Assembly: GCA_049644685.1 (NCBI GenBank) | Contig: JBARSJ010000320.1 | Span: 7,916-71,915, forward strand | Origin: Anaerolineales bacterium | GTDB taxonomy: Bacteria; Chloroflexota; Anaerolineae; Anaerolineales; UBA11858 | Length of the DNA: 64,000 bases | Direction of reading: 5' to 3' | Shown: positions 47,132-57,708 of the stretch, piece after piece | Position numbering within the stretch: position 1 is the stretch's first letter | Layout: every line of letters begins with the position of its first letter | Made by a program: the position numbers and the translations under genes | The notes under the pieces: generated by a model | The model's input: only the letters and a program-made list of their open reading frames with translations | What the model was told of the DNA's origin: nothing | Database searches by the model: none

Positions 47132-47542
47132 ATGAAAACATTGTCTCTAGAACTCCCCGCAATGTATGGAGACCATCATGTAAAAGAAGTCAGACGGATA
47201 TTATTGGAAATTGAGGGTGTCAAGGATATTTACGCCAGCAGCAGTTTCCAAGTCGTCGAAGTAAAATATGACCCAAAGAAAACTACCCCTGAAGACCTCA
47301 CCGCTGCGCTGGAGAAAGCTGGGTATACTGGCGACATCAACATTTTGGTTGAACCATCCATACCTGCCTATTTACGCGAGGGAGATAAATACTTCCGGAC
47401 AACATCAATCAGTGAAGAAACTCGAAATATTATTGGTTTTGAGCAGGAAGTAGTATATCAAGGACGCACCCAGTGGCCGTGCCCGGGACTGGGTTTACTT
47501 AATGTGGTTGAGCCCCAAACTAAGGAGACTAATAATGGTTAA
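47132..47542 (+). CDS. HMA-fold-like small protein lacking CxxC (GDHH instead), unknown function
   Basis: 136 aa. Residues 1-65 follow the beta-alpha-beta-beta-alpha-beta HMA pattern (...LELPAMYGDHHVKEVRRILLEIEGVKDIYA...VEVKYDP...LTAALEKAGY). AGGAG RBS. 8-nt overlap with the CODH start. Confidence 0.6.
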   Translation: MKTLSLELPAMYGDHHVKEVRRILLEIEGVKDIYASSSFQVVEVKYDPKKTTPEDLTAALEKAGYTGDINILVEPSIPAYLREGDKYFRTTSISEETRNIIGFEQEVVYQGRTQWPCPGLGLLNVVEPQTKETNNG

Positions 47543-49541
47543 GAAAGAAAACAAGAAACCCTTAGAAGAGTATTCGATTGATCTAGCGACCCAAGAAATG
47601 CTAGCCCGTGCGGAAGAATTGGGTTTAGAAACAGCCTTTTCCCGTTCTGACAATATGAAAGCCTGTCCCATTGGCGCGGATGCATTATGCTGCAAAATCT
47701 GCAGTATGGGTCCCTGCCGAATTGTGAAAGCGGGACAAACAGGTATTTGTGGAGCGACAGCGGATACTATCCAGGCCCGAAACTTTATTCGAATGGTGGC
47801 TGCCGGAGCTGCGGCTCACTCTGATCATGGGCGTGATATGGCGATCACTTTGAAAGAAACAGCCAACGGTGAAACTCAGGGCTATATTATCCGTGATGTC
47901 GCCAAACTCCGAGATCTTGCCTCGAACTATAACATTCCGATTGAAGACCGTTCCCCCAACGAAATAGCCAACGATTTGGCAGATTTGTACATAGCTCAGT
48001 TTGGCCAACAAACGGGCCTGGTCGCACCAGTGATCCGGGCGCCGAAAAAACGCCGTGAAATCTGGGAAAAACTAGGGGTTCTTCCCCGGGGAGTTGACCG
48101 CGAGGTTGTGGAAGCCTTACACCGCACCCATATCGGCGATGACCAGGATGCAGAACATATCCTGGACCACGCGGTACGCACTGCTATTGCTGACGGATGG
48201 GGCGGCAGCTTGATTGCTACGGATGTATCTGATATTTTGTTTGGATCCCCGGCCCCTATCCTGGGGGAAGCAAACCTGGGTGTATTGAAGGATGACTATG
48301 TCAATGTCGTTGTTCACGGACATGAACCTACTTTGAGCAATATGATTGTGGCCGCATCACAATCCCCGGATATCCTCGAATATGCCCGGGCAGCGGGCGC
48401 TGAAGGAGTGAATATTTCAGGGATTTGCTGTACTGCAAATGAAATCTTGATGCGTCAGGGTATCCCAGCCGCGGGGAACTTCCTGCAGCAGGAATTAGCT
48501 ATCATGACCGGCGCAGTGGAATCCATGGTGGTGGATGTCCAATGCATCATGCAAGCTATAGTTGGGCTGGCCGAGAATTTCCACACCAAAGTCATCACTA
48601 CTTCCAAGAAAGTTAAAATCAAGGGTGCTACGCATGTAGAGTTTGACGAGAAGAAAGCCCTGGATATTGCCAAAGATATCCTCCGCACCTCAATTGATAA
48701 CTATAAAAATCGCGGCGAGACCAGAATTCCTGACCACCGAGAGTCACTCGTTCCTGGATTTTCTCATGAGTATATTAACTATGCTCTGGGAGGCTCGTAC
48801 CGATCATCATTCCGACCCCTTAACGATGCGGTTATGTCCGGACGCATCCGTGGTGTGGTGGGTCTCGTGGGTTGTAATAATCCTCGGGAAAAGCACGATT
48901 CTCTCCATGTGAAATTAACTAAAGAGCTCCTTAAACAGGATGTTCTGGTTGTTGAGACCGGCTGTGCCTCCATTGCCAGCGCTAAGCAGGGTCTGTTGGT
49001 CGGCGAAGCCGGTCTGGACCAGGTAGGCCCCGGTTTGAGGGAGATTTGTGAAACGATTGGTATGCCCCCGGTACTGCATATGGGTTCTTGTGTTGATAAC
49101 AGCCGCATTTTGACCGTCCTGGCACAAATTGTAGAAGAAGGCGGTTTGGGCGAGGATATCAGCGAAATCCCGGTTGTCGGCTTAGCGCCTGAGTGGATGA
49201 GTGAGAAAGCCATCTCTATCGCGACCTACGTTGTGGCATCAGGTGTCTATACCATCATGTCGGGTACTGCGCCATTAGACGAGAATCCCAAGGTGGAGGA
49301 CAGCGCCATTGTTCCTCAACTGCTCAGCAGCGGATGGGAAGAGAAGTTTGGAGCCGGGTTAGAATTCATCAACGATTTTGACACTATCATGAAGAAAACC
49401 CTGGACCACATCGATAAAAAACGTGCCGACCTCGGCTTACCCGTATATGATCCGAAAGCCTTCGGAAAAAGCGGGGATTCCCGGATGAATGAATTAGAAA
49501 AGATGCCTGTGAAGGATCGCCGCCAAGCAATTTACGGATAA
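47535..49541 (+). CDS. acsA: Anaerobic Ni-Fe carbon monoxide dehydrogenase catalytic subunit (CooS/AcsA)
   Basis: N-terminal Cys clusters (ACPIGADALCCKICSMGPCRI, GICGA), HGHEP, CCTANE, GCNN, MGSCVDNSR. AAGGAG lies upstream of the ATG at 47535 (668 aa). The track start at 47502 is inside the previous gene. Confidence 0.95.
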   Translation: MVKKENKKPLEEYSIDLATQEMLARAEELGLETAFSRSDNMKACPIGADALCCKICSMGPCRIVKAGQTGICGATADTIQARNFIRMVAAGAAAHSDHGRDMAITLKETANGETQGYIIRDVAKLRDLASNYNIPIEDRSPNEIANDLADLYIAQFGQQTGLVAPVIRAPKKRREIWEKLGVLPRGVDREVVEALHRTHIGDDQDAEHILDHAVRTAIADGWGGSLIATDVSDILFGSPAPILGEANLGVLKDDYVNVVVHGHEPTLSNMIVAASQSPDILEYARAAGAEGVNISGICCTANEILMRQGIPAAGNFLQQELAIMTGAVESMVVDVQCIMQAIVGLAENFHTKVITTSKKVKIKGATHVEFDEKKALDIAKDILRTSIDNYKNRGETRIPDHRESLVPGFSHEYINYALGGSYRSSFRPLNDAVMSGRIRGVVGLVGCNNPREKHDSLHVKLTKELLKQDVLVVETGCASIASAKQGLLVGEAGLDQVGPGLREICETIGMPPVLHMGSCVDNSRILTVLAQIVEEGGLGEDISEIPVVGLAPEWMSEKAISIATYVVASGVYTIMSGTAPLDENPKVEDSAIVPQLLSSGWEEKFGAGLEFINDFDTIMKKTLDHIDKKRADLGLPVYDPKAFGKSGDSRMNELEKMPVKDRRQAIYG

Positions 49542-49567: not shown

Positions 49568-52500
49568 ATGTCTCGATATATTGCCACCCGTGCCATTCGC
49601 GGAGCTAATGCGCTAGTCATTGAAGCGGAAGCGATGCTTCAAAAAGGATTATCCGAGAAAGGACCCGACACTATTATCGAATTCCCAAATACTGCCTACT
49701 ACTTACCTTTAATTTATGGTATGACGGGAATTGAAATCACTAAACTTGAACAGCTAACAGAAGTACTCCGGATTGCCCGGAAATTACTGCACCTGGTTCC
49801 CGCAGAATCAAAGTGGACGCCTTATCTGGGCGAAACACTGGACAGCGGGATGGCCACTTTACTGGCTGCGGAGACCATCGAGGCTATTCGATCGGTATAT
49901 CAACTTCAACCCGAGTTGTACCCGGGATTTGAACTGGGCGGTGGAACGGAATATTCAGACCGGGACTTTGGTATGTCCGGCAGGTTGAACGGCCCCATCG
50001 ACGACATCCAATTGCGGTCCTGGGGAATCCAATTGGTAGATGGGCGCATGCCTGGTTTTGCTGCGATCGTTGGGGCAGCAAAATCCAACGAAGTCGCTGT
50101 TAAAATTGTTCGGGAACTCCAGCAGCGTAACATTTTGACTTTCCTCACGGGGAATGTTAATGGCCGCAGCATCATCGACCAGCTTGTGGAAGAGGGTGTG
50201 GATTTGGGGTATGACACTTATACGGTTCCCTTCGGCACAGATACCATCAGCGCTATTTATGCGCTTGGTTTTGCTACCCGCTCAGCACTCACGTTCGGGG
50301 GACTTAAAGCAGGTCAAGCCCGGGATATCCTGGAATACAACCGGGACCGGGTTTTTGCTTTTGTGCTTGCCCTGGGAGAGGTAGATGATCTGAAGTATGC
50401 AGCCGCAGCGGGAGCTATTAACTTTGGATTTCCGGTGATTGCCGATACCGTGATCCCGGAAATATTACCCACGGGTATCACGACCTACGAACATGTTGTC
50501 AGCATGCCTTTCAATGAGATTGAAGGGGAAGATGATCTGGATCGGGCTAATAAACTGGTTCAAAAATGCATCCAGGTCAGAGGCGTGAAAATCAAGATCA
50601 CCGACGTTCCTGTCCCCGTGCCTTATGGATCTGCCTTCGAGGGAGAAGTTGTTCGCCGGGCAGATATGCGGGTTGAGTTTGGCGGTAAAAACTCCCGATC
50701 ATTTGAATACCTCTTCATGACGGAAATGGAGGACATCACGGATGGGAAAGTAGATGTAGTTGGGCCCACATTTGATGATCTGGAAGACGGCGCCTCTATG
50801 GATATGGGTGTGGTTGTTCAGGTGGCAGGGCGGGAAATGGAAATGGATTTCGAACCTGTCCTGGAACGTCAGATCCATGACTTTGTGAACGGCGCATCTG
50901 GAATTCAGCACATTGGACAGCGGGATATTGTCTGGTGCCGAATCTCAAAGGGAGCGGCGGAAAAAGGATTCCAACTGGAACACTTCGGAAAAATAATCCA
51001 CGCCCGACTTCACTCAGATTTTGGCGCTGTTCTGGATAAAGTCCAGGTTACTGTTTACACAGATAAAGGCGAAATGGAAACCTGGCTTGAGAAAGCCCGG
51101 AAATCCTATGATTTCCGCAATAAACGACTGGCAGATATGGTTGATTCTTCAGTGGAAGAGTTTTATTCCTGTACTCTCTGCCAAAGCTTTGCTCCTGATC
51201 ATGTCTGTGTAGTCAGTCCTGAGCGGTTGGGATTATGTGGTGCTTACAACTGGTTGGACTGCAAGGCTTCTTTCAGCATTGACCCCACCGGTCCTAACCA
51301 GCCCATTAAGGTGGGAGAATGTTATGATGAAGAGATTGGATACTGGAAGGGAACCATTGATTACACCAAGTCAGCTTCCCACGGGGTTATAGAAAAAGTA
51401 TCCATGTACTCAATTATGGAAAACCCGATGACAGCCTGCGGTTGTTTCGAAGCGATCCTGATGTACATCCCTGAAGTGGAGGGTGTAATTGTGGTCAGCC
51501 GGGAAGATACCGGAATGACTCCCATGGGAATGAAATTCAGCACACTCGCCGGCATTGCAGGTGGCGGGGTGCAAACTCCGGGTGTAATGGGCATAGGGAA
51601 ATATTATATGCTCAGCCCCAAATTTATCTCCGCAGAAGGCGGATTTAAACGGGTTGTCTGGATGAGTAAAAACCTTAAAGAATCTATGATGGCAGAATTG
51701 CAGTCTGTCGCTGAAAGAGAAGGCATCCCGGATTTGATCGAAAAGATAGCAGACAGCGAATTGGTTACCACTGTGGAGGAACTGCAGGAATGGGTGAAAT
51801 CAAAGAAACATCCAGTTCTTGAAATGGGTACCATGCAACGGGAAGAAAAAGAACTCGATATTCCTGAAGATGTGGAACCGAGTGAAGATGTAATTGCCCA
51901 GGCAGAAGCGGTGATTGCGAAAACAACACCGGATGCACCGGAATTAGCACCAGAACCTGCTGAACCTGCTCCAGAAAGGAAACCCGCCCCTCCGTCCGCT
52001 GCCCCGATTCCAGGTGGAATTACGGAAGGTCGGGCCGAGGTTGCAGTGGATATGCTGCGGCGAGCTCTAATGGCAGCCCTGGCTGAACTGGGTGGTATAG
52101 AAGGGTTGGAAGATTTCAAACTTTCCGCAATACCTGCAGCTCCGACAACCCAAGCAGCTCCAGCGGCGAAAGCCAAAACAGTTGAAATAGCTCCTGATGA
52201 ACCCTGGCTTCCTGACGGCACAAAAACCAAACTATCCAAAGAATCCTGGGAAGGCATTGTGAGGGAAATAACCCTCGGGGCAACTGCCGCTGATGGCGGT
52301 ACCCGGTCACACACGGTGACGATTGGGGGATCCACAGCCATGCCCTATATGCATTTTGAAGGACAGACTCCCTTTAAGCCTGTAATCGCTATTGAGATCT
52401 TGAGCCGGCGTCCTGATGACTGGTCAGAGCTCTTGGTAAAGGCCTGGGGGGATGTGATGGACGATCCCGGGGAATGGGCTAAAGCGGCAGAGAGAGCCGG

Positions 52501-53182
52501 TGCTGAAGTTTTGTATTTGAAACTTGCCCTCACCGATAAAGATGGAAATCCGACCACCAAGGAACAAGCCGTTGAGGCAGTTGATAAAGTCCTCAAAGCG
52601 AGCGGTTTACCCCTGGTTGTCTTTGGTCCAGGACAGCCGGATCCTGATAATGAGTTATTGGTCGAAATCTCCAATAAGTTCAAAGGAGAACGGCTGCTCT
52701 TAGGTGTTTGTGAGGATAAAAATTACCGGACGATTGTTGCTTCTGCCATGGCAGACGGCCAGTTGATAGTGGCTCGAACCGCAATGGATGTAAACCTGGC
52801 AAAACAACTCAATATTCTCATTACAGATATGGGCCTTCCTGCGGATAGCATTGTGATGGATCCTACCACAGGCGCTTTGGGCTATGGCTTTGAATATGGG
52901 TACTCAGTAATGGAAAGGCTGCGGATAGCGGCTTTGCAAGGTGACAAGATGACCCAATATCCGATGTTGGTGACTCCTGGTGAGGAATGCTGGAAAACCA
53001 AGGAATCCAAAGTGGGTAAAGGTGTTCCGGAAGCCTGGGGAGATTGGGAAACCAGGGCAATTGCCTGGGAGACTACAACGGCCATCATGTTAGCGGAATC
53101 CTGTGCGGATTTGATCGTCTTGCGCCATCCAGAAAGCGTAAGACGTACAAAAGAAGCCATCGATGACTTGATGAGCAGCTAG
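49568..53182 (+). CDS. acsB: Acetyl-CoA synthase (AcsB) fused to corrinoid Fe-S protein small subunit (AcsD)
   Basis: Residues 1-756 are collinear with bacterial AcsB (YSCTLCQSFAPDHVCVVSPERLGLCGA, MENPMTACGCFEA). Residues ~898-1204 are collinear with AcsD (GGTRSHTVTIGG, QLNILITDMGLP, DPTTGALGYGFEYGYSVMERLRIAALQGDKM). A ~137-aa P/A/E-rich linker joins them. Confidence 0.9.
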   Translation: MSRYIATRAIRGANALVIEAEAMLQKGLSEKGPDTIIEFPNTAYYLPLIYGMTGIEITKLEQLTEVLRIARKLLHLVPAESKWTPYLGETLDSGMATLLAAETIEAIRSVYQLQPELYPGFELGGGTEYSDRDFGMSGRLNGPIDDIQLRSWGIQLVDGRMPGFAAIVGAAKSNEVAVKIVRELQQRNILTFLTGNVNGRSIIDQLVEEGVDLGYDTYTVPFGTDTISAIYALGFATRSALTFGGLKAGQARDILEYNRDRVFAFVLALGEVDDLKYAAAAGAINFGFPVIADTVIPEILPTGITTYEHVVSMPFNEIEGEDDLDRANKLVQKCIQVRGVKIKITDVPVPVPYGSAFEGEVVRRADMRVEFGGKNSRSFEYLFMTEMEDITDGKVDVVGPTFDDLEDGASMDMGVVVQVAGREMEMDFEPVLERQIHDFVNGASGIQHIGQRDIVWCRISKGAAEKGFQLEHFGKIIHARLHSDFGAVLDKVQVTVYTDKGEMETWLEKARKSYDFRNKRLADMVDSSVEEFYSCTLCQSFAPDHVCVVSPERLGLCGAYNWLDCKASFSIDPTGPNQPIKVGECYDEEIGYWKGTIDYTKSASHGVIEKVSMYSIMENPMTACGCFEAILMYIPEVEGVIVVSREDTGMTPMGMKFSTLAGIAGGGVQTPGVMGIGKYYMLSPKFISAEGGFKRVVWMSKNLKESMMAELQSVAEREGIPDLIEKIADSELVTTVEELQEWVKSKKHPVLEMGTMQREEKELDIPEDVEPSEDVIAQAEAVIAKTTPDAPELAPEPAEPAPERKPAPPSAAPIPGGITEGRAEVAVDMLRRALMAALAELGGIEGLEDFKLSAIPAAPTTQAAPAAKAKTVEIAPDEPWLPDGTKTKLSKESWEGIVREITLGATAADGGTRSHTVTIGGSTAMPYMHFEGQTPFKPVIAIEILSRRPDDWSELLVKAWGDVMDDPGEWAKAAERAGAEVLYLKLALTDKDGNPTTKEQAVEAVDKVLKASGLPLVVFGPGQPDPDNELLVEISNKFKGERLLLGVCEDKNYRTIVASAMADGQLIVARTAMDVNLAKQLNILITDMGLPADSIVMDPTTGALGYGFEYGYSVMERLRIAALQGDKMTQYPMLVTPGEECWKTKESKVGKGVPEAWGDWETRAIAWETTTAIMLAESCADLIVLRHPESVRRTKEAIDDLMSS

Positions 53183-53273: not shown

Positions 53274-54605
53274 ATGGCTTTGACCGGGATTCAAATTTAC
53301 AAACTGCTTCCACAAACCAATTGTAAGGAATGCGACTTTCCCACTTGTTTGGCATTTGCGATGAAGTTGGCTGCCAAACAGGTTGAATTAGCCAAATGTC
53401 CTTATGTCAGTGAGGAATCAGCCGTCCAACTGGCGGAAGCCGCGGCTCCGCCTGTTCGTTCCATTACGATTAAGTCAAATGGGCATGAGGTAAAAGGCGG
53501 CAATGAAATTGTACTCTTCCGCCATAACAAGAAGTTTTTCAGCCCCCCGGGATTTTTTATCCGGGTCTATGATGATCAATCCAGCGAGGACATAAAATCC
53601 AAAGTAAAACCGGTTGATGACTATGTTGTGGATTATGTAGGGATGGATTTGTCGATGGGTGGAATCGCTGTTCAGGCGCGCGGCGGAGATTTTAGCGCTG
53701 CGGTGGAAGCAGTTCGTGATGCTACCAAGCTTCCCCTGATCCTGATAGGTTCAGCCGAAGAGCTAAAAACAGGATTGGAAAAGCTGGCAAAGGATGAAAC
53801 TCCCTTGCTTTGCAGTGCCACCTCCCAGAATTGGGAAGCTATGGCTGCTCTGGCGAAGGAATATAACGCTCCCTTGGCAGTCGAAGCAGGCAACATTGAT
53901 GAGATGGTCGGATTGGTGGAAAAATTAGAAGCCCAGGATCTGAAGGACTTTGTCCTGGCTCCTAAACAGAGAAATTTGCTAGGATCCTTAACTGCCAATA
54001 CCACCATTCGCCGGATGGCTATTAAGGAAAATTACAGCCTACTGGGATTTCCCATTATCAACTTCCCCGGTGATGTAGGTGATCCGATCCGGGAAGTAAC
54101 CCGAGCTATGCAGGCAATTGGAAAGTACAGCAGCTTTATAGTCCTGGATAATTTTGATCCCGCAACCGCGTACTCTCTGTTAGTACTGCGGGCGAATCTC
54201 TACACTGACCCGCAAGAACCAATCCAGGTGACCCCGGGAATCTATGAGCTCAATAATCCCGGTCCTGAAGATCCTTTCCTGGTCACCACTAATTTCAGCA
54301 TTACCTATTTCAGTGTAGCCAACGAGGTAGAGAGTATGGGACTGCCGGCTTGGCTGTTGGTGACTGATTCGGAAGGTATGAGTGTACTCACTGCCTGGGC
54401 GGCGGGAAAATTCGACGCTGAGATCATTGCCAGAGACGCAAAGCAGTTTAAAGCGGCTGAAAAGGTGACGAAACGACGGATAGTCCTACCGGGCCACACC
54501 GCAGTTTTATCAGGGGAACTAGAGGAAGAATTACCCGACTGGGAAGTTAGAGTTGGTCCAAAAGAGGCTGTAGATTTACCCGCTTTTCTAAAAGAAGCTT
54601 TATAG
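53274..54605 (+). CDS. acsC: Corrinoid iron-sulfur protein large subunit (AcsC)
   Basis: N-terminal 4Fe-4S motif (NCKECDFPTCLAFAMKLA...CP), TIM-barrel middle, C-terminal B12-binding-like domain. 443 aa. Confidence 0.93.
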   Translation: MALTGIQIYKLLPQTNCKECDFPTCLAFAMKLAAKQVELAKCPYVSEESAVQLAEAAAPPVRSITIKSNGHEVKGGNEIVLFRHNKKFFSPPGFFIRVYDDQSSEDIKSKVKPVDDYVVDYVGMDLSMGGIAVQARGGDFSAAVEAVRDATKLPLILIGSAEELKTGLEKLAKDETPLLCSATSQNWEAMAALAKEYNAPLAVEAGNIDEMVGLVEKLEAQDLKDFVLAPKQRNLLGSLTANTTIRRMAIKENYSLLGFPIINFPGDVGDPIREVTRAMQAIGKYSSFIVLDNFDPATAYSLLVLRANLYTDPQEPIQVTPGIYELNNPGPEDPFLVTTNFSITYFSVANEVESMGLPAWLLVTDSEGMSVLTAWAAGKFDAEIIARDAKQFKAAEKVTKRRIVLPGHTAVLSGELEEELPDWEVRVGPKEAVDLPAFLKEAL

Positions 54606-54797: not shown

Positions 54798-56720
54798 ATG
54801 GCTACATTGTTTTCTGTACAATTTGATATAGCGGATGAGCCGGTTGAGGTTCCAGGGGGAACTCTACTTACAGATGCCGCCGAAAATGCAGGAATTGAAA
54901 TTAACCAACCCTGCGGAGGTCAAGGGCGGTGTGGGATATGTGCCGTCCAGGTCACTTCCGGCCAAGTGCGCCGGCGCAGTACTATGCGTTTATCCGCTGA
55001 AGATGTTGAGCAGGGTTATGCGTTGTCTTGCCAGACTGTCGTTGAAGGGGATGTTTCGGTCATTGTTCCACCTCAGGAAAAAATTCAACAGCGGTTAACA
55101 ACCGGACAGTCTGCGGCAGATGTGTCCGTTCCGCCTGATTACGATTACCGCAGGGATCAGACCGTTCAGAGGATTTCTCTGGAGCTAAAACCGCCCAGCA
55201 TGGAAGATCAGACCAGTGATTGGGCCCGGTTGAGAACTGCCTTAGGGGGCAAATACGAGCTGGGTAATATCTCTATCTCCTTGCCGGTTTTACAAAAGTT
55301 GCCTTCTGTAGTTAGAGAGGGTGATTGGAAGGTCACTGCGATCATTTTTAAGGATAATGACACGGGAGCATGCGCTTCAGCTGAGGTCATCGATTTACTG
55401 CCTGGTCTGATTAAAGAAGACACGCCGCTCTGGGGAGCCGCAGTAGATATTGGCACCACAACGGTAAAAGTAATGCTGGTGGATCTGATATCCGGCGAGG
55501 ATAAAGGACAGGCGTCGGAATATAACAAACAAATTGCCCGCGGGGAAGATGTTATTTCCAGGATTATATATGCAGGAAAAGAATCCGGGGATCAAGTTCT
55601 CAGGGAATTGGTTGTAGATAGCATTAATGAATTGATTGGCAGAGCTTGTAAACGGGGAAAAACAAAACCGGATCAGATATACAAAACCATTTTAGCCGGA
55701 AACAGTACCATGATGCACCTATTATTAAAAATTCCGCCCTCAAGCATTCGCCTGGCCCCCTATATCACCGTTGCTAATCACCTTCCGGTTCTCAGCGCGG
55801 AAGAAACGGGATTCAATACATTTTCGCAGGGTAAGGTTATTTGCCTTCCGAGTGTTGCCAGCTATGTTGGGGCGGATATTTCGGCAGGAGTCTTGTCGTC
55901 TGGGTTGGCTGATACCGAAAAGATAACCCTGTTCCTGGATGTTGGCACTAATGGCGAGATGGTTCTCGGTTCAAAGGAATGGCTGGTAACCTGTGCCTGC
56001 TCCGCTGGCCCGGCATTTGAAGGTGCTGGGGTTTTGCACGGCATGAGAGCTACTGCAGGTGCGATTGATGAGGTCTGGATCAATGAGGAAAATTATGAAG
56101 CATCCTGGCGTGTTATCGGCGATGAAAAACCAAAAGGTTTGTGCGGAAGCGCCTTAATTTCCCTCCTGGCAGAATTGTTAATGACCGGGGTGATTAACAA
56201 GAGCGGAAGATTTAATTTTTCACTGGAAACATCCCGGATTAGGAAAGGTTCTCACGGCGGAGAATACGTGGTCAGCTGGGCCGATGAGACTGAAATCGGA
56301 GAGGACATCATGCTGACTGAAGTGGATATTGACAACCTGATGCGAGCTAAAGCCGCAATATTTGCAGGATTTTCAGTATTGGGTGACAGCGTAGGAGTCC
56401 CCCTGGAATCGGTTGAGCAGGTCTTAATTGGCGGCGGATTCGGTCAATTTATTAACGTGGAAAAGGCAATCCAGATTGGATTGCTTCCGGATATGCCCTG
56501 GGAACGTTTTCAATTCTTGGGAAACACATCCTTAAAAGGCGCTTACCTGGCATTATTGGATCAAAAGAATCAAGATCGCATTACCGAGATTGCCAACAGA
56601 ATGACCTATATTGAGCTGTCAGCGGACAACCGGTTTTTTGACGCTTTTACATCGGCGATGTTTTTACCCCATACAAATAAGGAATTGTTTCCTTCCGTGC
56701 ACCCTGGCGGAAAGGAATGA
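54798..56720 (+). CDS. acsV: Corrinoid activation/regeneration protein (RACo/AcsV): 2Fe-2S ferredoxin + ASKHA ATPase
   Basis: N-terminal plant-type ferredoxin motif (CGGQGRCGICAV...C) and ASKHA phosphate motifs (AVDIGTTTV, LDVGTNGE). 640 aa. Confidence 0.88.
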   Translation: MATLFSVQFDIADEPVEVPGGTLLTDAAENAGIEINQPCGGQGRCGICAVQVTSGQVRRRSTMRLSAEDVEQGYALSCQTVVEGDVSVIVPPQEKIQQRLTTGQSAADVSVPPDYDYRRDQTVQRISLELKPPSMEDQTSDWARLRTALGGKYELGNISISLPVLQKLPSVVREGDWKVTAIIFKDNDTGACASAEVIDLLPGLIKEDTPLWGAAVDIGTTTVKVMLVDLISGEDKGQASEYNKQIARGEDVISRIIYAGKESGDQVLRELVVDSINELIGRACKRGKTKPDQIYKTILAGNSTMMHLLLKIPPSSIRLAPYITVANHLPVLSAEETGFNTFSQGKVICLPSVASYVGADISAGVLSSGLADTEKITLFLDVGTNGEMVLGSKEWLVTCACSAGPAFEGAGVLHGMRATAGAIDEVWINEENYEASWRVIGDEKPKGLCGSALISLLAELLMTGVINKSGRFNFSLETSRIRKGSHGGEYVVSWADETEIGEDIMLTEVDIDNLMRAKAAIFAGFSVLGDSVGVPLESVEQVLIGGGFGQFINVEKAIQIGLLPDMPWERFQFLGNTSLKGAYLALLDQKNQDRITEIANRMTYIELSADNRFFDAFTSAMFLPHTNKELFPSVHPGGKE

Positions 56721-56784: not shown

Positions 56785-57708
56785 ATGTATATCATTGGAG
56801 AGAATATTCATATCATTTCCCCGAAAGTAAAAAAGGCTTTGGCTGAGAAGGATGCGGAATTCTTTAAGAAATCCGCCCTCCAGCAGGTTGAGCATGGGGC
56901 AAACGCTATAGATTTGAACCTGGGCAGGCAAAAACATACCTGGGAAGAAGTATTTCCTTGGGTGACAAAGATAGTCCAGGAAGTTGTGGATGTCCCGCTC
57001 TGCATCGACAGCACAAATGTTGATGGTATTGAGGCAGCCCTTAAGGTGATTACAAAAGCCCGCCCCATCGTCAATTCTACTTCTGCTGAAGCAGAGCGCC
57101 TGGAACAAGTTCCCCTGCTGGCAAAAAAATATAATGCCAAATTGGTCGCCCTGACACTGAAAAAAGAAGGCATCCCGGTAAGCGCTGATGAGCGGGTAGA
57201 AATTGCCCTGGATTACCTCATCCCCCGGGCGATGGAAGTTGGCATAGAGATACCGGATTTGATTATCGATCCGCTGGCACTCACTGTCTCCGGGTGTCAG
57301 GAATACTGTCCGGAATTGATTGAGGCTGTCCGGACCATTAAATTTGCCGGCGATCCCCCGCCCTCCATTTCTATTGGACTTTCTAATGTGTCCAATGCCG
57401 TTCCCGAAGAAACCCGGCCTATCTTAAACCGGGTGTATCTTGCCATGTTGATGGGAGCCGGTTTGGAAATGATGATCGCTGATCCACTGGATGAGAAACA
57501 AAATGAAGTGATCCGAATCATTGAAGAACGGGATGAAAGCACCCCTCTCGGAAAGCTATACCTTAAACTCCATGATGCTACAGAAGCGATGGAAGAGATA
57601 ACCAAGGATGATGTTGACGAGAATGACCCGGAGCAGATGGCTGTTTGGAAATCCTCCCAGGTGCTTCTGAACAAAGTGATTTACGCCGATTCGTTTTTAG
57701 AACAATAA
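56785..57708 (+). CDS. acsE: Methyltetrahydrofolate:corrinoid/iron-sulfur protein methyltransferase (AcsE)
   Basis: MYIIGENIH..., IDLNLG, LCIDSTN, VNSTSAE, IDPL, GLSNVSN. It has ~40 extra residues before the conserved C-terminal ...NKVIYADSF compared with the Moorella enzyme as I remember it. Confidence 0.92.
   Translation: MYIIGENIHIISPKVKKALAEKDAEFFKKSALQQVEHGANAIDLNLGRQKHTWEEVFPWVTKIVQEVVDVPLCIDSTNVDGIEAALKVITKARPIVNSTSAEAERLEQVPLLAKKYNAKLVALTLKKEGIPVSADERVEIALDYLIPRAMEVGIEIPDLIIDPLALTVSGCQEYCPELIEAVRTIKFAGDPPPSISIGLSNVSNAVPEETRPILNRVYLAMLMGAGLEMMIADPLDEKQNEVIRIIEERDESTPLGKLYLKLHDATEAMEEITKDDVDENDPEQMAVWKSSQVLLNKVIYADSFLEQ

What the first reader, a model, noticed from the sequence alone, without database searches (positions are those of the whole stretch)
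49568..53182. Acetyl-CoA synthase fused to the corrinoid Fe-S protein small subunit (AcsB-AcsD) through a ~137-aa flexible linker
One uninterrupted 1204-codon ORF.
- Residues 1-756 are collinear with bacterial AcsB. They include the A-cluster Cys region (CTLCQSFAPDHVCVVSPERLGLCGA; MTACGCFEA) and end where Moorella AcsB ends (HPVLEMGTM).
- Residues ~898-1204 are collinear with AcsD from its N-terminal VxxVxLGAT...GGTRSHT motif to the C-terminus.
- Between them (nt ~51836-52246) lies a Pro/Ala/Glu-rich, low-complexity linker with one amphipathic helix-like stretch (AEVAVDMLRRALMAALAELGG).

In the textbook bacterial clusters I know (Moorella, Carboxydothermus, clostridia), acsB and acsD are separate genes. 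Here acsC follows as a separate gene. Covalent tethering would fix the ACS:CFeSP stoichiometry and keep the methyl-transfer partners in proximity. That is functionally reminiscent of the stable archaeal ACDS complex. I do not know of a description of this architecture.
Basis: partly seen in the sequence, partly recalled or inferred. Interest (0 to 1): 0.7.

Follow-up and report, generated by a model that had tools for sequence, protein, structure and literature searches.

The report
Acetyl-CoA synthase fused to corrinoid-protein subunit
One real 1204-codon gene joins acetyl-CoA synthase (AcsB) to the small subunit of its methyl-donor protein (AcsD) through a ~130-residue tether with two conserved helices; the same design recurs in hundreds of uncultured bacteria but is annotated only as "AcsB", and I found no paper that describes it.

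Summary
ORF 49568-53182 (+) encodes a complete bacterial AcsB (res 1-756, A-cluster ligands in Moorella spacing), a ~130-aa Ala/Pro/Glu-rich linker, and a complete AcsD (res 887-1204). It lies in an acsA-acsBD-acsC-acsV-acsE cluster.

It is not an artefact:
- At least 43 independent Anaerolineales genome assemblies and at least 120 protein clusters (90% identity) carry the same uninterrupted ORF.
- dN/dS in the linker is below 1.

It is also not unique:
- A second fused clade, only about 50% identical, spans several named phyla/lineages: Lentisphaerota, Planctomycetota, Spirochaetota, Desulfovibrionaceae, Aminicenantes, KSB1 and Chitinivibrionales.
- Bootstrapped trees of both halves indicate independent fusion events. 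A third type exists as a single representative.

New detail: the linker is not featureless. Two helices (774-786, 821-848) are as constrained as the catalytic domains (dN/dS 0.03-0.10, against 0.22-0.25 for the spacers). The second clade has its own conserved linker helix at the same relative position.

Most likely function: a covalent tether that holds CoFeSP at ACS while still allowing it to shuttle. This resembles the archaeal ACDS scaffold but shows no detectable homology to it.

No description turned up in nine literature searches. Sources name these proteins only as AcsB. Verdict: a moderately interesting new variant of a known system.

The parts
49568..53182 (+). acsB-acsD fusion gene: 1204 codons plus stop, about 131 kDa
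   Evidence: Single ORF. All four Pfam domains lie in one chain. The same ORF is intact in 43 genome loci.
49568..51835 (+). AcsB module (res 1-756): bacterial three-domain acetyl-CoA synthase with the A1 domain
   Evidence: NF040764 scores 940.8 bits against a cut-off of 800. It aligns end to end with solved ACS chains, E = 1e-180 to 1e-185. dN/dS is 0.04.
51170..51244 (+). A-cluster [4Fe-4S]/bridging Cys motif CTLCQSFAPDHVCVVSPERLGLCGA (C535, C538, C547, C557)
   Evidence: Located. These columns are invariant in 71 fused homologues.
51428..51454 (+). Ni-binding motif MTACGCFEA (C624-G625-C626)
   Evidence: Located. Invariant in alignment A1.
51836..52225 (+). Linker (res 757-886): 48% Ala+Pro+Glu, predicted disordered apart from two helices
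   Evidence: Composition. AF2 pLDDT is below 50 across the linker. Linker length is 110-178 aa (median 136) in 122 family members. dN/dS of the spacers is 0.22-0.25.
51887..51925 (+). Conserved linker helix H1, DVIAQAEAVIAKT (res 774-786)
   Evidence: Conserved in all 43 aligned ORFs: majority-residue fraction 0.76, against 0.43 in the flanking spacers. AF2 predicts a helix at model residues 770-780, which is protein 774-784.
52028..52111 (+). Conserved linker helix H2, GRAEVAVDMLRRALMAALAELGGIEGLE (res 821-848)
   Evidence: Majority-residue fraction is 0.72. L830, A833, L834 and E836 (A1 numbering, add 4) are invariant in 71 sequences. AF2 predicts a helix at model residues 818-836. dN/dS of H1 and H2 together is 0.03-0.10.
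52193..52267 (+). Conserved cap in front of the AcsD barrel, PDxPWLxxxTKTxxxKExWxGxVRE (res 876-900)
   Evidence: Majority-residue fraction is 0.70.
52226..53179 (+). AcsD module (res 887-1204): complete small subunit of the corrinoid iron-sulfur protein (TIM barrel)
   Evidence: NF003376 scores 355.6 bits against a cut-off of 280, covering profile positions 3-312 of 313. 4djd_D matches at E = 3.5e-85. AF2 pLDDT is mostly 85-95. dN/dS is 0.04-0.07.
47502..49541 (+). acsA, the Ni-CODH catalytic subunit, 26 nt upstream of the fusion gene
   Evidence: Pfam Prismane at 3e-158. TIGR01702 scores 607 bits against a cut-off of 478.
53274..54605 (+). acsC, the CoFeSP large subunit (Fe-S domain plus CdhD barrel plus corrinoid domain), a separate gene
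   Evidence: NF003195 scores 502.9 bits against a cut-off of 306. Pfam finds FeS and CdhD.
54798..56720 (+). acsV/RACo, the reductive activator of the corrinoid protein
   Evidence: Pfam finds Fer2, RACo_linker, Raco_middle and RACo_C_ter.
56785..57708 (+). acsE-like methyltetrahydrofolate:CoFeSP methyltransferase
   Evidence: Pfam Pterin_bind at 4e-20. NF005719 scores 229.6 bits, below its cut-off of 259.
47132..47542 (+). HMA-fold gene conserved upstream of acsA (context only; its role is unknown)
   Evidence: Pfam HMA at 3e-8. Found at the same position in 49 related loci.

Best explanation
The gene encodes a single ~131-kDa polypeptide. A complete, catalytically equipped bacterial acetyl-CoA synthase (AcsB) is covalently tethered to the small subunit (AcsD) of the corrinoid iron-sulfur protein.

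Inferred assembly:
- The separately encoded large subunit AcsC, which carries the corrinoid and a [4Fe-4S] cluster, binds the AcsD barrel as in ordinary CoFeSP.
- The AcsB A1 domain binds the AcsA CODH dimer.
- The expected product is therefore an (AcsA)2(AcsB~D)2(AcsC)2 particle in which the methyl donor can never diffuse away from the A-cluster.

Inferred role of the linker:
- It is ~130 residues and mostly disordered, and it was never shorter than ~106 residues in the 237 fused proteins of the two fused families that I measured. That is long enough for CoFeSP still to swing between ACS (methyl delivery), the methyltransferase AcsE (re-methylation) and RACo (reductive repair).
- It should hold the partners at a sub-millimolar to millimolar effective concentration.
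- The two strongly constrained helices in the linker are most likely docking or self-association elements that organise this tether, rather than passive spacer.

Shown here: the architecture, the intact catalytic motifs, the conservation, purifying selection, recurrence in independent lineages, and the gene context.

Inferred only: single-chain expression in vivo, the assembly stoichiometry, the kinetic benefit, and the role of the helices.
For: - One ORF with full-length AcsB and AcsD modules, both above curated family cut-offs.
- A-cluster ligands are present and invariant.
- The reading frame is intact in 43 of the GTDB genome loci retrieved, with linkers of varying length. It is also intact in at least 120 clusters at 90% identity, of 1171-1256 aa.
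- dN/dS against three relatives: AcsB 0.04, AcsD 0.04-0.07, linker spacers 0.22-0.25, linker helices 0.03-0.10. The linker is therefore translated in this frame and its helices are constrained like the enzyme domains.
- No convincing internal ribosome-binding site plus start codon lies ahead of the AcsD module. No second acsD exists in the window.
- A second fused clade (at least 115 clusters, linker 106-268 aa, median 130) has the same gene order, acsA-acsBD-acsC-RACo, and its own conserved linker helix.
- Bootstrapped NJ trees put the two fused clades apart in both halves. An exclusive F1+F2 clade appears in 0 of 100 replicates. F2 is monophyletic in 100 and 97 of 100. In the AcsB tree, F1 groups with unfused Anaerolineae in 97 of 100.
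- Close unfused relatives have acsB, then a CBS-domain gene or non-coding gap, then acsD. Their AcsB has no tail and their AcsD has no N-terminal extension.
- AF2 models the linker as disordered (pLDDT below 50) with two helices, and the AcsD barrel confidently.
- Literature context: the archaeal ACDS is held together by disordered CdhC and CdhD termini and a CdhD coiled coil. Bacterial ACS binds CoFeSP through A1 and A3 interfaces (10.64898/2026.07.07.736967).
Against: - There is no expression, proteomic or biochemical data for any member. All carriers seen are metagenome-assembled genomes or unnamed contigs.
- Post-translational cleavage in the linker cannot be excluded.
- The AF2 model of the AcsB half is poor (shallow alignment; overall mean pLDDT 60, pTM 0.39). 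It gives no confident docking of either helix.
- The hydrophobic moments of the helices are not above shuffled controls, so the nature of their binding surface is unclear.
- Three loci from long-read MAGs carry frameshifts in the ORF. These are most simply sequencing errors, but that is unproven.
Confidence: 0.65

Rival explanations
1. Sequencing or assembly artefact: a lost stop codon, a frameshift or a chimeric join merges two normally separate genes.
For: Three related loci (L049, L051, L052; long-read MAGs) do show broken frames, so errors occur in this region of some assemblies.
Against: - The same uninterrupted ORF occurs in 43 independent genome loci from many studies and in at least 120 clusters at 90% identity.
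- The linker varies by in-frame indels only.
- dN/dS in the linker is below 1, and 0.03-0.10 in its helices.
- A second clade, about 50% identical, has the same architecture.
Confidence: 0.01
2. Neutral fusion: two adjacent genes merged by loss of the intervening sequence, and the linker is a tolerated passive spacer. The enzyme behaves exactly like the unfused CODH/ACS plus CoFeSP.
For: - Unfused close relatives exist and evidently function with separate genes (L044, L047, L071).
- Gene fusions of co-operating subunits are common.
- The spacer parts of the linker evolve quickly: majority-residue fraction 0.40-0.43 and dN/dS 0.22-0.25.
Against: - Two linker helices are as constrained as the catalytic domains.
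- Linker length stays within 106-268 aa and never collapses in 237 proteins.
- The same ~130-aa, helix-containing design appears in two clades that the trees separate.
Confidence: 0.2
3. Scaffold hypothesis: the conserved linker helices self-associate as a coiled coil or helical bundle. Several AcsB~D chains then assemble into a higher-order, ACDS-like supercomplex, converging on the CdhD coiled-coil scaffold of methanogens.
For: - H2 is an Ala/Leu-rich helix with hydrophobic residues at i, i+3/4 spacing (V825, L828, L832, L836, L839, read from the sequence). It sits ~40 residues before the AcsD barrel.
- The oligomerising helix of archaeal CdhD (res 45-68) occupies a similar position ahead of the CdhD barrel. 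The archaeal-type CdhD model NF003375 begins to align at profile position 79, which corresponds to residue 860 here.
- The second fused clade has an even longer conserved helix at the same relative place.
Against: - No detectable sequence homology between the two clades' linkers (hhalign probability 0.1%, E = 0.53).
- No match of the linker to any solved chain beyond the AcsB end.
- The archaeal CdhC-type tails I read (P0174, P0185, P0187) look different: Pro-rich, then a KIVLKNAKIHI-like end.
- No multimer prediction or experiment is available.
- These proteins keep the A1 domain that already anchors ACS to CODH, so the need that drives the archaeal scaffold is absent.
Confidence: 0.2
4. Polyprotein: the fusion is translated as one chain but is cleaved in the linker to release ordinary AcsB and AcsD. 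Fusion would then serve only equimolar co-expression.
For: Long disordered Pro/Ala/Glu-rich linkers are protease-accessible. Nothing in the sequence excludes it.
Against: - No protease gene or recognisable cleavage motif is conserved in the cluster.
- Translational coupling would achieve equimolar expression without a 130-aa linker carrying constrained helices.
Confidence: 0.07

Closest known systems
Bacterial bifunctional CODH/ACS plus free CoFeSP (Moorella thermoacetica, Carboxydothermus hydrogenoformans, Clostridium autoethanogenum; e.g. PDB 1oao, 7zkj, 4djd, 9fzy)
   Same: - Same subunits and domains: AcsA, three-domain AcsB with A1, AcsC, AcsD, plus RACo and AcsE.
- Same A-cluster ligand spacing.
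- AcsB aligns end to end at E about 1e-180 and AcsD at E about 1e-85.
   Different: AcsB and AcsD are one polypeptide here, joined by a ~130-aa linker with two conserved helices. In the solved systems they are separate chains (~730 aa and ~310-323 aa) and CoFeSP binds ACS reversibly.
Archaeal ACDS supercomplex (CdhABCDE; Methanosarcina), as described in preprint 10.64898/2026.07.07.736967
   Same: ACS and CoFeSP are held permanently together through long disordered segments. These lie at the C-terminus of the ACS subunit and the N-terminus of the CoFeSP small subunit, with a helix in front of the small-subunit barrel.
   Different: - There the link is non-covalent, through a CdhD coiled coil and tail interactions. 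Here it is a peptide bond.
- This ACS keeps the A1 domain and pairs with a bacterial-type AcsA.
- No CdhB was seen among the genes scanned in 38-63 kb of the window.
- No sequence homology of the linker to archaeal tails was detectable.
Second AcsB-AcsD fusion clade ('F2'; e.g. P0122, P0277) in Lentisphaerota/Victivallales, Phycisphaerae/Tepidisphaerales, Spirochaetota, Desulfovibrionaceae, Aminicenantes, KSB1 and Chitinivibrionales
   Same: - Same four Pfam domains in the same order.
- Linker median 130 aa with one strongly conserved helix about two thirds of the way along.
- Same acsA-acsBD-acsC-RACo gene order.
   Different: - Only ~50% identical in AcsB and ~39% in AcsD.
- The linker sequence is unrelated by hhalign.
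- Trees place it apart from the Anaerolineales clade, with unfused proteins in between.
Other natural fusions of the ACS module seen among the 50%-identity representatives
   Same: These show that subunits of this pathway fuse repeatedly: AcsA-AcsB (P0134, 1375 aa), Pyr_redox_2-AcsB (P0128), and AcsB joined by a short linker to an N-truncated AcsD (P0131, 938 aa).
   Different: The partners or geometry differ. Only the F1 and F2 types join a complete AcsD through a long linker.

Membership tests
Bacterial acetyl-CoA synthase AcsB (NCBIfam NF040764; Pfam CODH_A_N + CdhC + ACS_CODH_B_C) | Three-domain A1-A2-A3 chain that scores above the curated family cut-off | tested here: met
   NF040764 scores 940.8 bits against a cut-off of 800, covering residues 10-756 over profile positions 1-704 of 705. 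The Pfam domains are in the canonical order. Solved ACS chains align end to end.
Bacterial acetyl-CoA synthase AcsB | A-cluster ligands: C-x2-C-x8-C-x9-C, and C-G-C 67 residues further on | tested here: met
   C535, C538, C547, C557 and C624-G-C626. They are invariant in 71 homologues. That the spacing equals Moorella C506/509/518/528/595/597 rests on my own knowledge.
Bacterial acetyl-CoA synthase AcsB | Encoded next to a Ni-CODH (AcsA) partner | tested here: met
   acsA at 47502-49541; TIGR01702 scores 607 bits against a cut-off of 478.
Bacterial acetyl-CoA synthase AcsB | Acetyl-CoA synthase activity | not testable with these tools
   No biochemistry is available for any member.
CoFeSP small subunit AcsD/CdhD (Pfam PF03599; NCBIfam NF003376) | Full-length delta-subunit TIM barrel above the curated cut-off | tested here: met
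   NF003376 scores 355.6 bits against a cut-off of 280, covering residues 887-1202 over profile positions 3-312 of 313. 4djd_D matches at E = 3.5e-85 over 895-1203. AF2 pLDDT is mostly 85-95 in this part.
CoFeSP small subunit AcsD/CdhD | Match to the narrow acetogen model WLP_AcsD (NF040759) above its cut-off | tested here: not met
   237 bits against a cut-off of 430. It is a delta subunit but lies outside that narrowly trained group.
CoFeSP small subunit AcsD/CdhD | Free-standing polypeptide of ~310-330 aa | tested here: not met
   It forms the C-terminal third of a 1204-aa chain. There is no convincing internal start.
CoFeSP small subunit AcsD/CdhD | Large-subunit partner AcsC encoded nearby | tested here: met
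   acsC at 53274-54605; NF003195 scores 502.9 bits against a cut-off of 306.
Archaeal ACDS complex (CdhABCDE) | Two-domain CdhC that lacks the A1 domain | tested here: not met
   The A1 domain is present: CODH_A_N at 22-108, and a full alignment to bacterial ACS from residue 11.
Archaeal ACDS complex (CdhABCDE) | CdhD N-terminal disordered region with an oligomerising coiled-coil helix | tested here: inconclusive
   A conserved helix (821-848) sits ahead of the barrel at a comparable position. No sequence homology was detectable, and oligomerisation cannot be tested here.
Archaeal ACDS complex (CdhABCDE) | Archaeal-type CdhA with a CdhB epsilon subunit | tested here: not met
   The CODH matches the bacterial catalytic-subunit model TIGR01702. 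It scores only 86 bits on cdhA TIGR00314, whose cut-off is 781. No CdhB-like hit was found among the 17 ORFs scanned in 38-63 kb.

The most novel reading that the evidence does not exclude
The constrained linker helices are self-association or docking modules that assemble AcsB~D, AcsC and AcsA into a permanently scaffolded, ACDS-like megacomplex in bacteria. On this reading the design was invented at least twice independently, and it converges on the coiled-coil scaffold just described for methanogen ACDS. 'Tethering by disordered tails' would then be a general solution for methyl hand-off in the Wood-Ljungdahl pathway. These natural single-chain enzymes would also be ready-made tools for trapping the ACS-CoFeSP methyl-transfer state.
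Probability: 0.2. Interest if true: 0.7.

Novelty: new variant of a known kind. Interest (0 to 1): 0.5.

Why it matters
1. Mechanism. Methyl transfer from CoFeSP to the A-cluster needs large, transient domain motions and has been hard to capture. A natural covalent ACS-CoFeSP tether that evolved at least twice argues that keeping the donor nearby is selectively valuable. It also offers a stable construct for cryo-EM and kinetics.

2. Evolution. Bacteria appear to have reached covalently what methanogens achieve through disordered tails and a coiled coil. This is relevant to current debates on ancestral CODH/ACS architectures.

3. Annotation. Every full-length copy that a source names is called AcsB, 'subunit alpha/beta', 'beta' or 'hypothetical'. 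Only one 268-aa fragment is named 'subunit delta'. Per-gene pathway calls may therefore score acsD/cdhD as missing and mark the Wood-Ljungdahl carbonyl branch as incomplete in Anaerolineales, Lentisphaerota, Planctomycetota, Aminicenantes, KSB1 and other widespread sediment and subsurface lineages.

Tried and rejected
- Artefact hypothesis: rejected on comparative and dN/dS evidence.
- Internal translation start for a separate AcsD: no convincing SD plus start in the linker. Only a weak GAGG lies before M829, inside H2.
- A second acsD in the window: none found.
- Homology of the linker to solved structures: only the AcsB C-terminus matched. An archaeal CdhC chain (9c0s_E) extended only about 26 residues into the tail, at E = 0.005.
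- Homology between the linkers of the two fused clades: hhalign probability 0.1%, E = 0.53. The best-aligned piece was nonetheless the helix, at the same profile position.
- Resemblance to archaeal CdhC tails (P0174, P0185, P0187) and to the published M. acetivorans CdhD 43-88 peptide: none convincing by eye. No formal test was possible without more archaeal sequences.
- Amphipathicity of the helices by hydrophobic moment: not above shuffles.
- AlphaFold2 of residues 5-1204 with a 71-sequence alignment: good for AcsD, poor for AcsB, linker below pLDDT 50, no docking information. I therefore ran no fold search.
- Origin of the linker from the CBS-domain gene that separates acsB and acsD in unfused relatives: only a vague resemblance by eye at one end. 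Not pursued.
- Literature: nine full-text searches and the passages read from eight papers gave no description of an AcsB-AcsD fusion. Adam et al. 2018 (PNAS 115:E1166), the most likely place for a prior remark, is not held.
- The first attempt at the exhaustive representative search failed on length. I repeated it with residues 5-1204.

Full report
**1. The observation**

The ORF lister returns a single open frame at 49568..53182 on the + strand, 1204 aa with an ATG start. Its translation has no internal stop.

AcsB half:
- Pfam places CODH_A_N (22-108), CdhC (349-502) and ACS_CODH_B_C (514-756) in the first 756 residues.
- NCBIfam gives NF040764 'ACS alpha/beta' over residues 10-756 at 940.8 bits (cut-off 800).
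- Against solved structures, residues 11-754/758 align end to end with bacterial ACS chains of ~730 aa (E = 1e-180 to 1e-185), including Moorella 1oao_C up to its residue 726 of 729.
- The A-cluster cysteines are C535, C538, C547, C557 and C624-G-C626.

AcsD half:
- Pfam places CdhD at 901-1186.
- NCBIfam gives NF003376 'delta subunit' over residues 887-1202. This covers profile positions 3-312 of 313 at 355.6 bits (cut-off 280).
- Residues 895-1203 align with residues 11-319 of the 323-aa Moorella CFeSP small subunit (4djd_D, E = 3.5e-85).

The intervening residues 757-886 contain 26 Ala, 19 Pro and 18 Glu out of 130.

**2. Context**

The gene sits in a compact, co-directional cluster:
- an HMA-fold gene (47132-47542);
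- acsA, the Ni-CODH (47502-49541);
- the fusion gene;
- acsC, the CoFeSP large subunit (53274-54605);
- acsV/RACo (54798-56720);
- an acsE-like methyltransferase (56785-57708);
- a malic-enzyme-like gene.

Upstream lie housekeeping genes (dnaK, dnaJ, prmA, recO and others). No second acsD and no cooC exist in the 64-kb window. The nearest genome copies are Anaerolineales MAGs at up to 95% protein identity, so the window comes from an uncultured Anaerolineales (Chloroflexota) bacterium.

**3. Not an artefact**

- A word-indexed search of 5.8 billion proteins listed 120 clusters at 90% identity, the display limit. They are 1171-1256 aa and 69-95% identical, and every one carries all four Pfam domains.
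- A scan of one genome per GTDB species returned 72 loci. Re-calling ORFs in them, 43 full-length Anaerolineales/Anaerolineae loci have AcsB and AcsD in one uninterrupted frame (the 43-row alignment is the window plus 42 of these). Further loci cut by contig ends are consistent with this.
- The linkers differ by many indels, all in frame. Over 122 family members, linker length is 110-178 aa with a median of 136.
- Nei-Gojobori estimates against L001, L002 and L048 give dN/dS of 0.04 for AcsB, 0.04-0.07 for AcsD, 0.22-0.25 for the linker spacers and 0.03-0.10 for the two linker helices. The linker is therefore translated in this frame and is under selection.
- Three loci from long-read MAGs have broken frames, while sister MAGs from the same project are intact. 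This is most simply sequencing error.

**4. The linker has structure**

Aligning the window protein with 42 of the genome-derived fused ORFs (43 sequences) shows three conserved islands in an otherwise fast-evolving Pro/Ala/Glu spacer:
- H1, DVIAQAEAVIAKT (774-786);
- H2, GRAEVAVDMLRRALMAALAELGGIEGLE (821-848);
- a cap, PDxPWL...TKT...KExWxGxVRE (876-900), in front of the AcsD barrel.

The fraction of sequences with the majority residue is 0.76, 0.72 and 0.70 for these islands. It is 0.40-0.43 for the spacers and 0.83-0.87 for the enzyme domains.

AlphaFold2 (residues 5-1204, 71-sequence alignment) predicts helices at exactly H1 and H2, within a linker of pLDDT below 50. It models the AcsD barrel confidently, but the AcsB half poorly, so the model says nothing about docking.

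No convincing internal SD plus start codon precedes the AcsD module.

**5. It is not unique**

An exhaustive HMMER scan of 1.84 billion representatives at 50% identity found two full-length fused representatives:
- P0121, the Anaerolineales family ('F1');
- P0122, 48% identical ('F2').

Searching with P0122 again filled the 120-row display with proteins of 1148-1319 aa carrying all four domains. Where a source names the organism, they come from Desulfovibrionaceae, Phycisphaerae, Tepidisphaerales, Lentisphaerae/Victivallales, Spirochaetota, Aminicenantes, KSB1, Chitinivibrionales and a 'Deltaproteobacteria bacterium TL4'.

One F2 locus shows cooC-cooC-acsA-acsBD-acsC-RACo. From acsA onwards this is the same order as in the window.

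F2 linkers are 106-268 aa (median 130). They contain their own strongly conserved helix, for example ...LKSTIAKDIVKDIIGTLSEKYLGE..., about two thirds of the way along. Profile-profile comparison of the F1 and F2 linkers is not significant (probability 0.1%, E = 0.53). Its only aligned piece is this helix, at the same profile position.

A third type (P0131, 938 aa) joins AcsB to an N-truncated AcsD through a short linker. It is a single representative, and I did not follow it up.

**6. Number of fusion events**

I built neighbour-joining trees with 100 bootstraps for the AcsB halves (43 sequences, 721 columns) and the AcsD halves (39 sequences, 314 columns).
- F2 is monophyletic in 100 and 97 of 100 replicates.
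- F1 groups with the unfused Anaerolineae L044, L047 and L071 in the AcsB tree (97 of 100).
- A clade of F1 plus F2 that excludes unfused proteins never appears (0 of 100 in both trees).

In the unfused relatives, AcsB ends at ...HPALxMxPxF* and AcsD starts directly at the barrel. A CBS-pair gene (L044, L071) or a non-coding gap (L047) lies between them.

The fusion therefore arose at least twice: inside Anaerolineae, and in the ancestor of F2. NJ without model selection is a coarse method, so this should be repeated with maximum likelihood.

**7. How it most likely works**

From established knowledge of the pathway:
- CoFeSP (AcsC plus AcsD) receives a methyl group from methyl-H4folate at AcsE.
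- It must then dock on ACS to methylate the A-cluster Ni.
- It occasionally needs RACo for reductive repair.

In bacteria CoFeSP is a separate protein that docks on ACS. The ACS A1 domain supplies large interfaces to both CODH and CoFeSP (10.64898/2026.07.07.736967).

In methanogens the whole system is a ~2 MDa ACDS. That complex is held together by a coiled coil in the disordered N-terminus of CdhD and, as proposed, by the disordered C-terminus of CdhC.

The protein here joins exactly those two termini, ACS C-terminus to small-subunit N-terminus, by a peptide bond.

My best reading (confidence 0.65) is a single-chain ACS~AcsD that binds AcsC and AcsA. CoFeSP is then permanently leashed at a high local concentration, roughly 0.1-1 mM for a ~100-Å leash by my own estimate. 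The long disordered linker preserves the freedom to visit AcsE and RACo.

The constrained helices imply something more specific than a passive leash, either docking or self-association. That is the part with the least evidence.

Rivals, with my confidence in each:
- artefact (0.01);
- neutral fusion with a passive spacer (0.2);
- helix-mediated ACDS-like scaffolding (0.2; it overlaps with the main model);
- polyprotein cleavage (0.07).

**8. Comparison and membership**

The N-terminal module passes every testable AcsB criterion. The C-terminal module passes the delta-subunit criteria, except that it is not free-standing and it misses the narrow acetogen-specific model NF040759 (237 bits against a cut-off of 430).

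It is not a member of the archaeal ACDS type:
- the A1 domain is present;
- the CODH is bacterial-type;
- no CdhB was seen among the genes scanned;
- the linker shows no detectable homology to archaeal tails.

It works like ACDS only in the sense of permanent tethering through disordered segments.

**9. Novelty and score**

The architecture is abundant in public sequence databases. Every full-length copy that a source names is called acetyl-CoA synthase, 'subunit alpha/beta', 'beta' or hypothetical. Only one 268-aa fragment is named 'subunit delta'.

Nine full-text searches and the passages read from eight papers found no description of an AcsB-AcsD fusion. One of those papers is a July 2026 preprint with a dedicated ACS phylogeny. 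The key evolutionary paper, Adam et al. 2018, could not be read, so an earlier remark cannot be excluded.

I rate it a new variant of a known kind, with interest 0.5. It is real, recurrent and mechanistically suggestive, and it has practical consequences for pathway annotation. It remains a fusion of two well-known partner subunits, with no functional data.

Noticed in passing
window 47132-47542 (+): A 136-aa HMA-fold protein whose usual GMTCxxC metal site reads AMYGDHH. It overlaps the annotated acsA start by 41 nt. The same gene lies directly upstream of acsA in 49 related Anaerolineae loci, both fused and unfused. No cooC homologue exists in the window, whereas the F2 cluster L073 has two CooC-like ATPases there. 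It may be a metal-handling accessory of this CODH/ACS.
   Followed up: partly
P0124, P0150 (relatives); L055:220-5556: Inteins (Intein_splicing plus LAGLIDADG homing endonuclease) are inserted inside the A-cluster motif of AcsB, between CTLC and CQSFAP. In the Anaerolineae locus L055 (1779-aa ORF), the AcsB-AcsD fusion is interrupted after AcsB residue ~538, probably at the same site.
   Followed up: partly
P0134, P0128, P0223, P0131 (50%-identity representatives): Other fusion architectures of the pathway: AcsA-AcsB in one 1375-aa chain; Pyr_redox_2-AcsB (1024 aa); AcsD with a ~210-aa C-terminal extension that has no Pfam hit (~520-530 aa, several representatives); and AcsB joined by a short linker to an N-truncated AcsD (938 aa).
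   Followed up: partly
L044:6315-7108, L071:10274-10736: In the closest unfused relatives, a small CBS-pair-like gene sits between acsB and acsD (L047 has a non-coding gap instead). The fused lineage has lost it. Whether any of it contributed to the linker is unknown.
   Followed up: no
L002 (CAXMRF010000040.1), L020 (JAOZRT010000411.1): Contigs binned as 'Nitrosomonadaceae' and 'Desulfobacterales' carry copies of the Anaerolineales fusion gene that are 93% and 86% identical. They are probably mis-binned contigs rather than transfers.
   Followed up: no
L049, L051, L052: Three long-read ('MFD') MAGs have the fusion ORF split by frameshifts, while four sister MAGs from the same project are intact. 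These are probably homopolymer errors. Such breaks would make the gene look unfused or pseudogenised in annotations.
   Followed up: partly
window 56785-57708 (+): The AcsE-like methyltransferase scores below the curated cut-offs of both NCBIfam models (229.6 against 259; 202.7 against 370). It also carries an insertion relative to the profile: 305 residues align to 255 profile positions. It may be a divergent MeTr.
   Followed up: no
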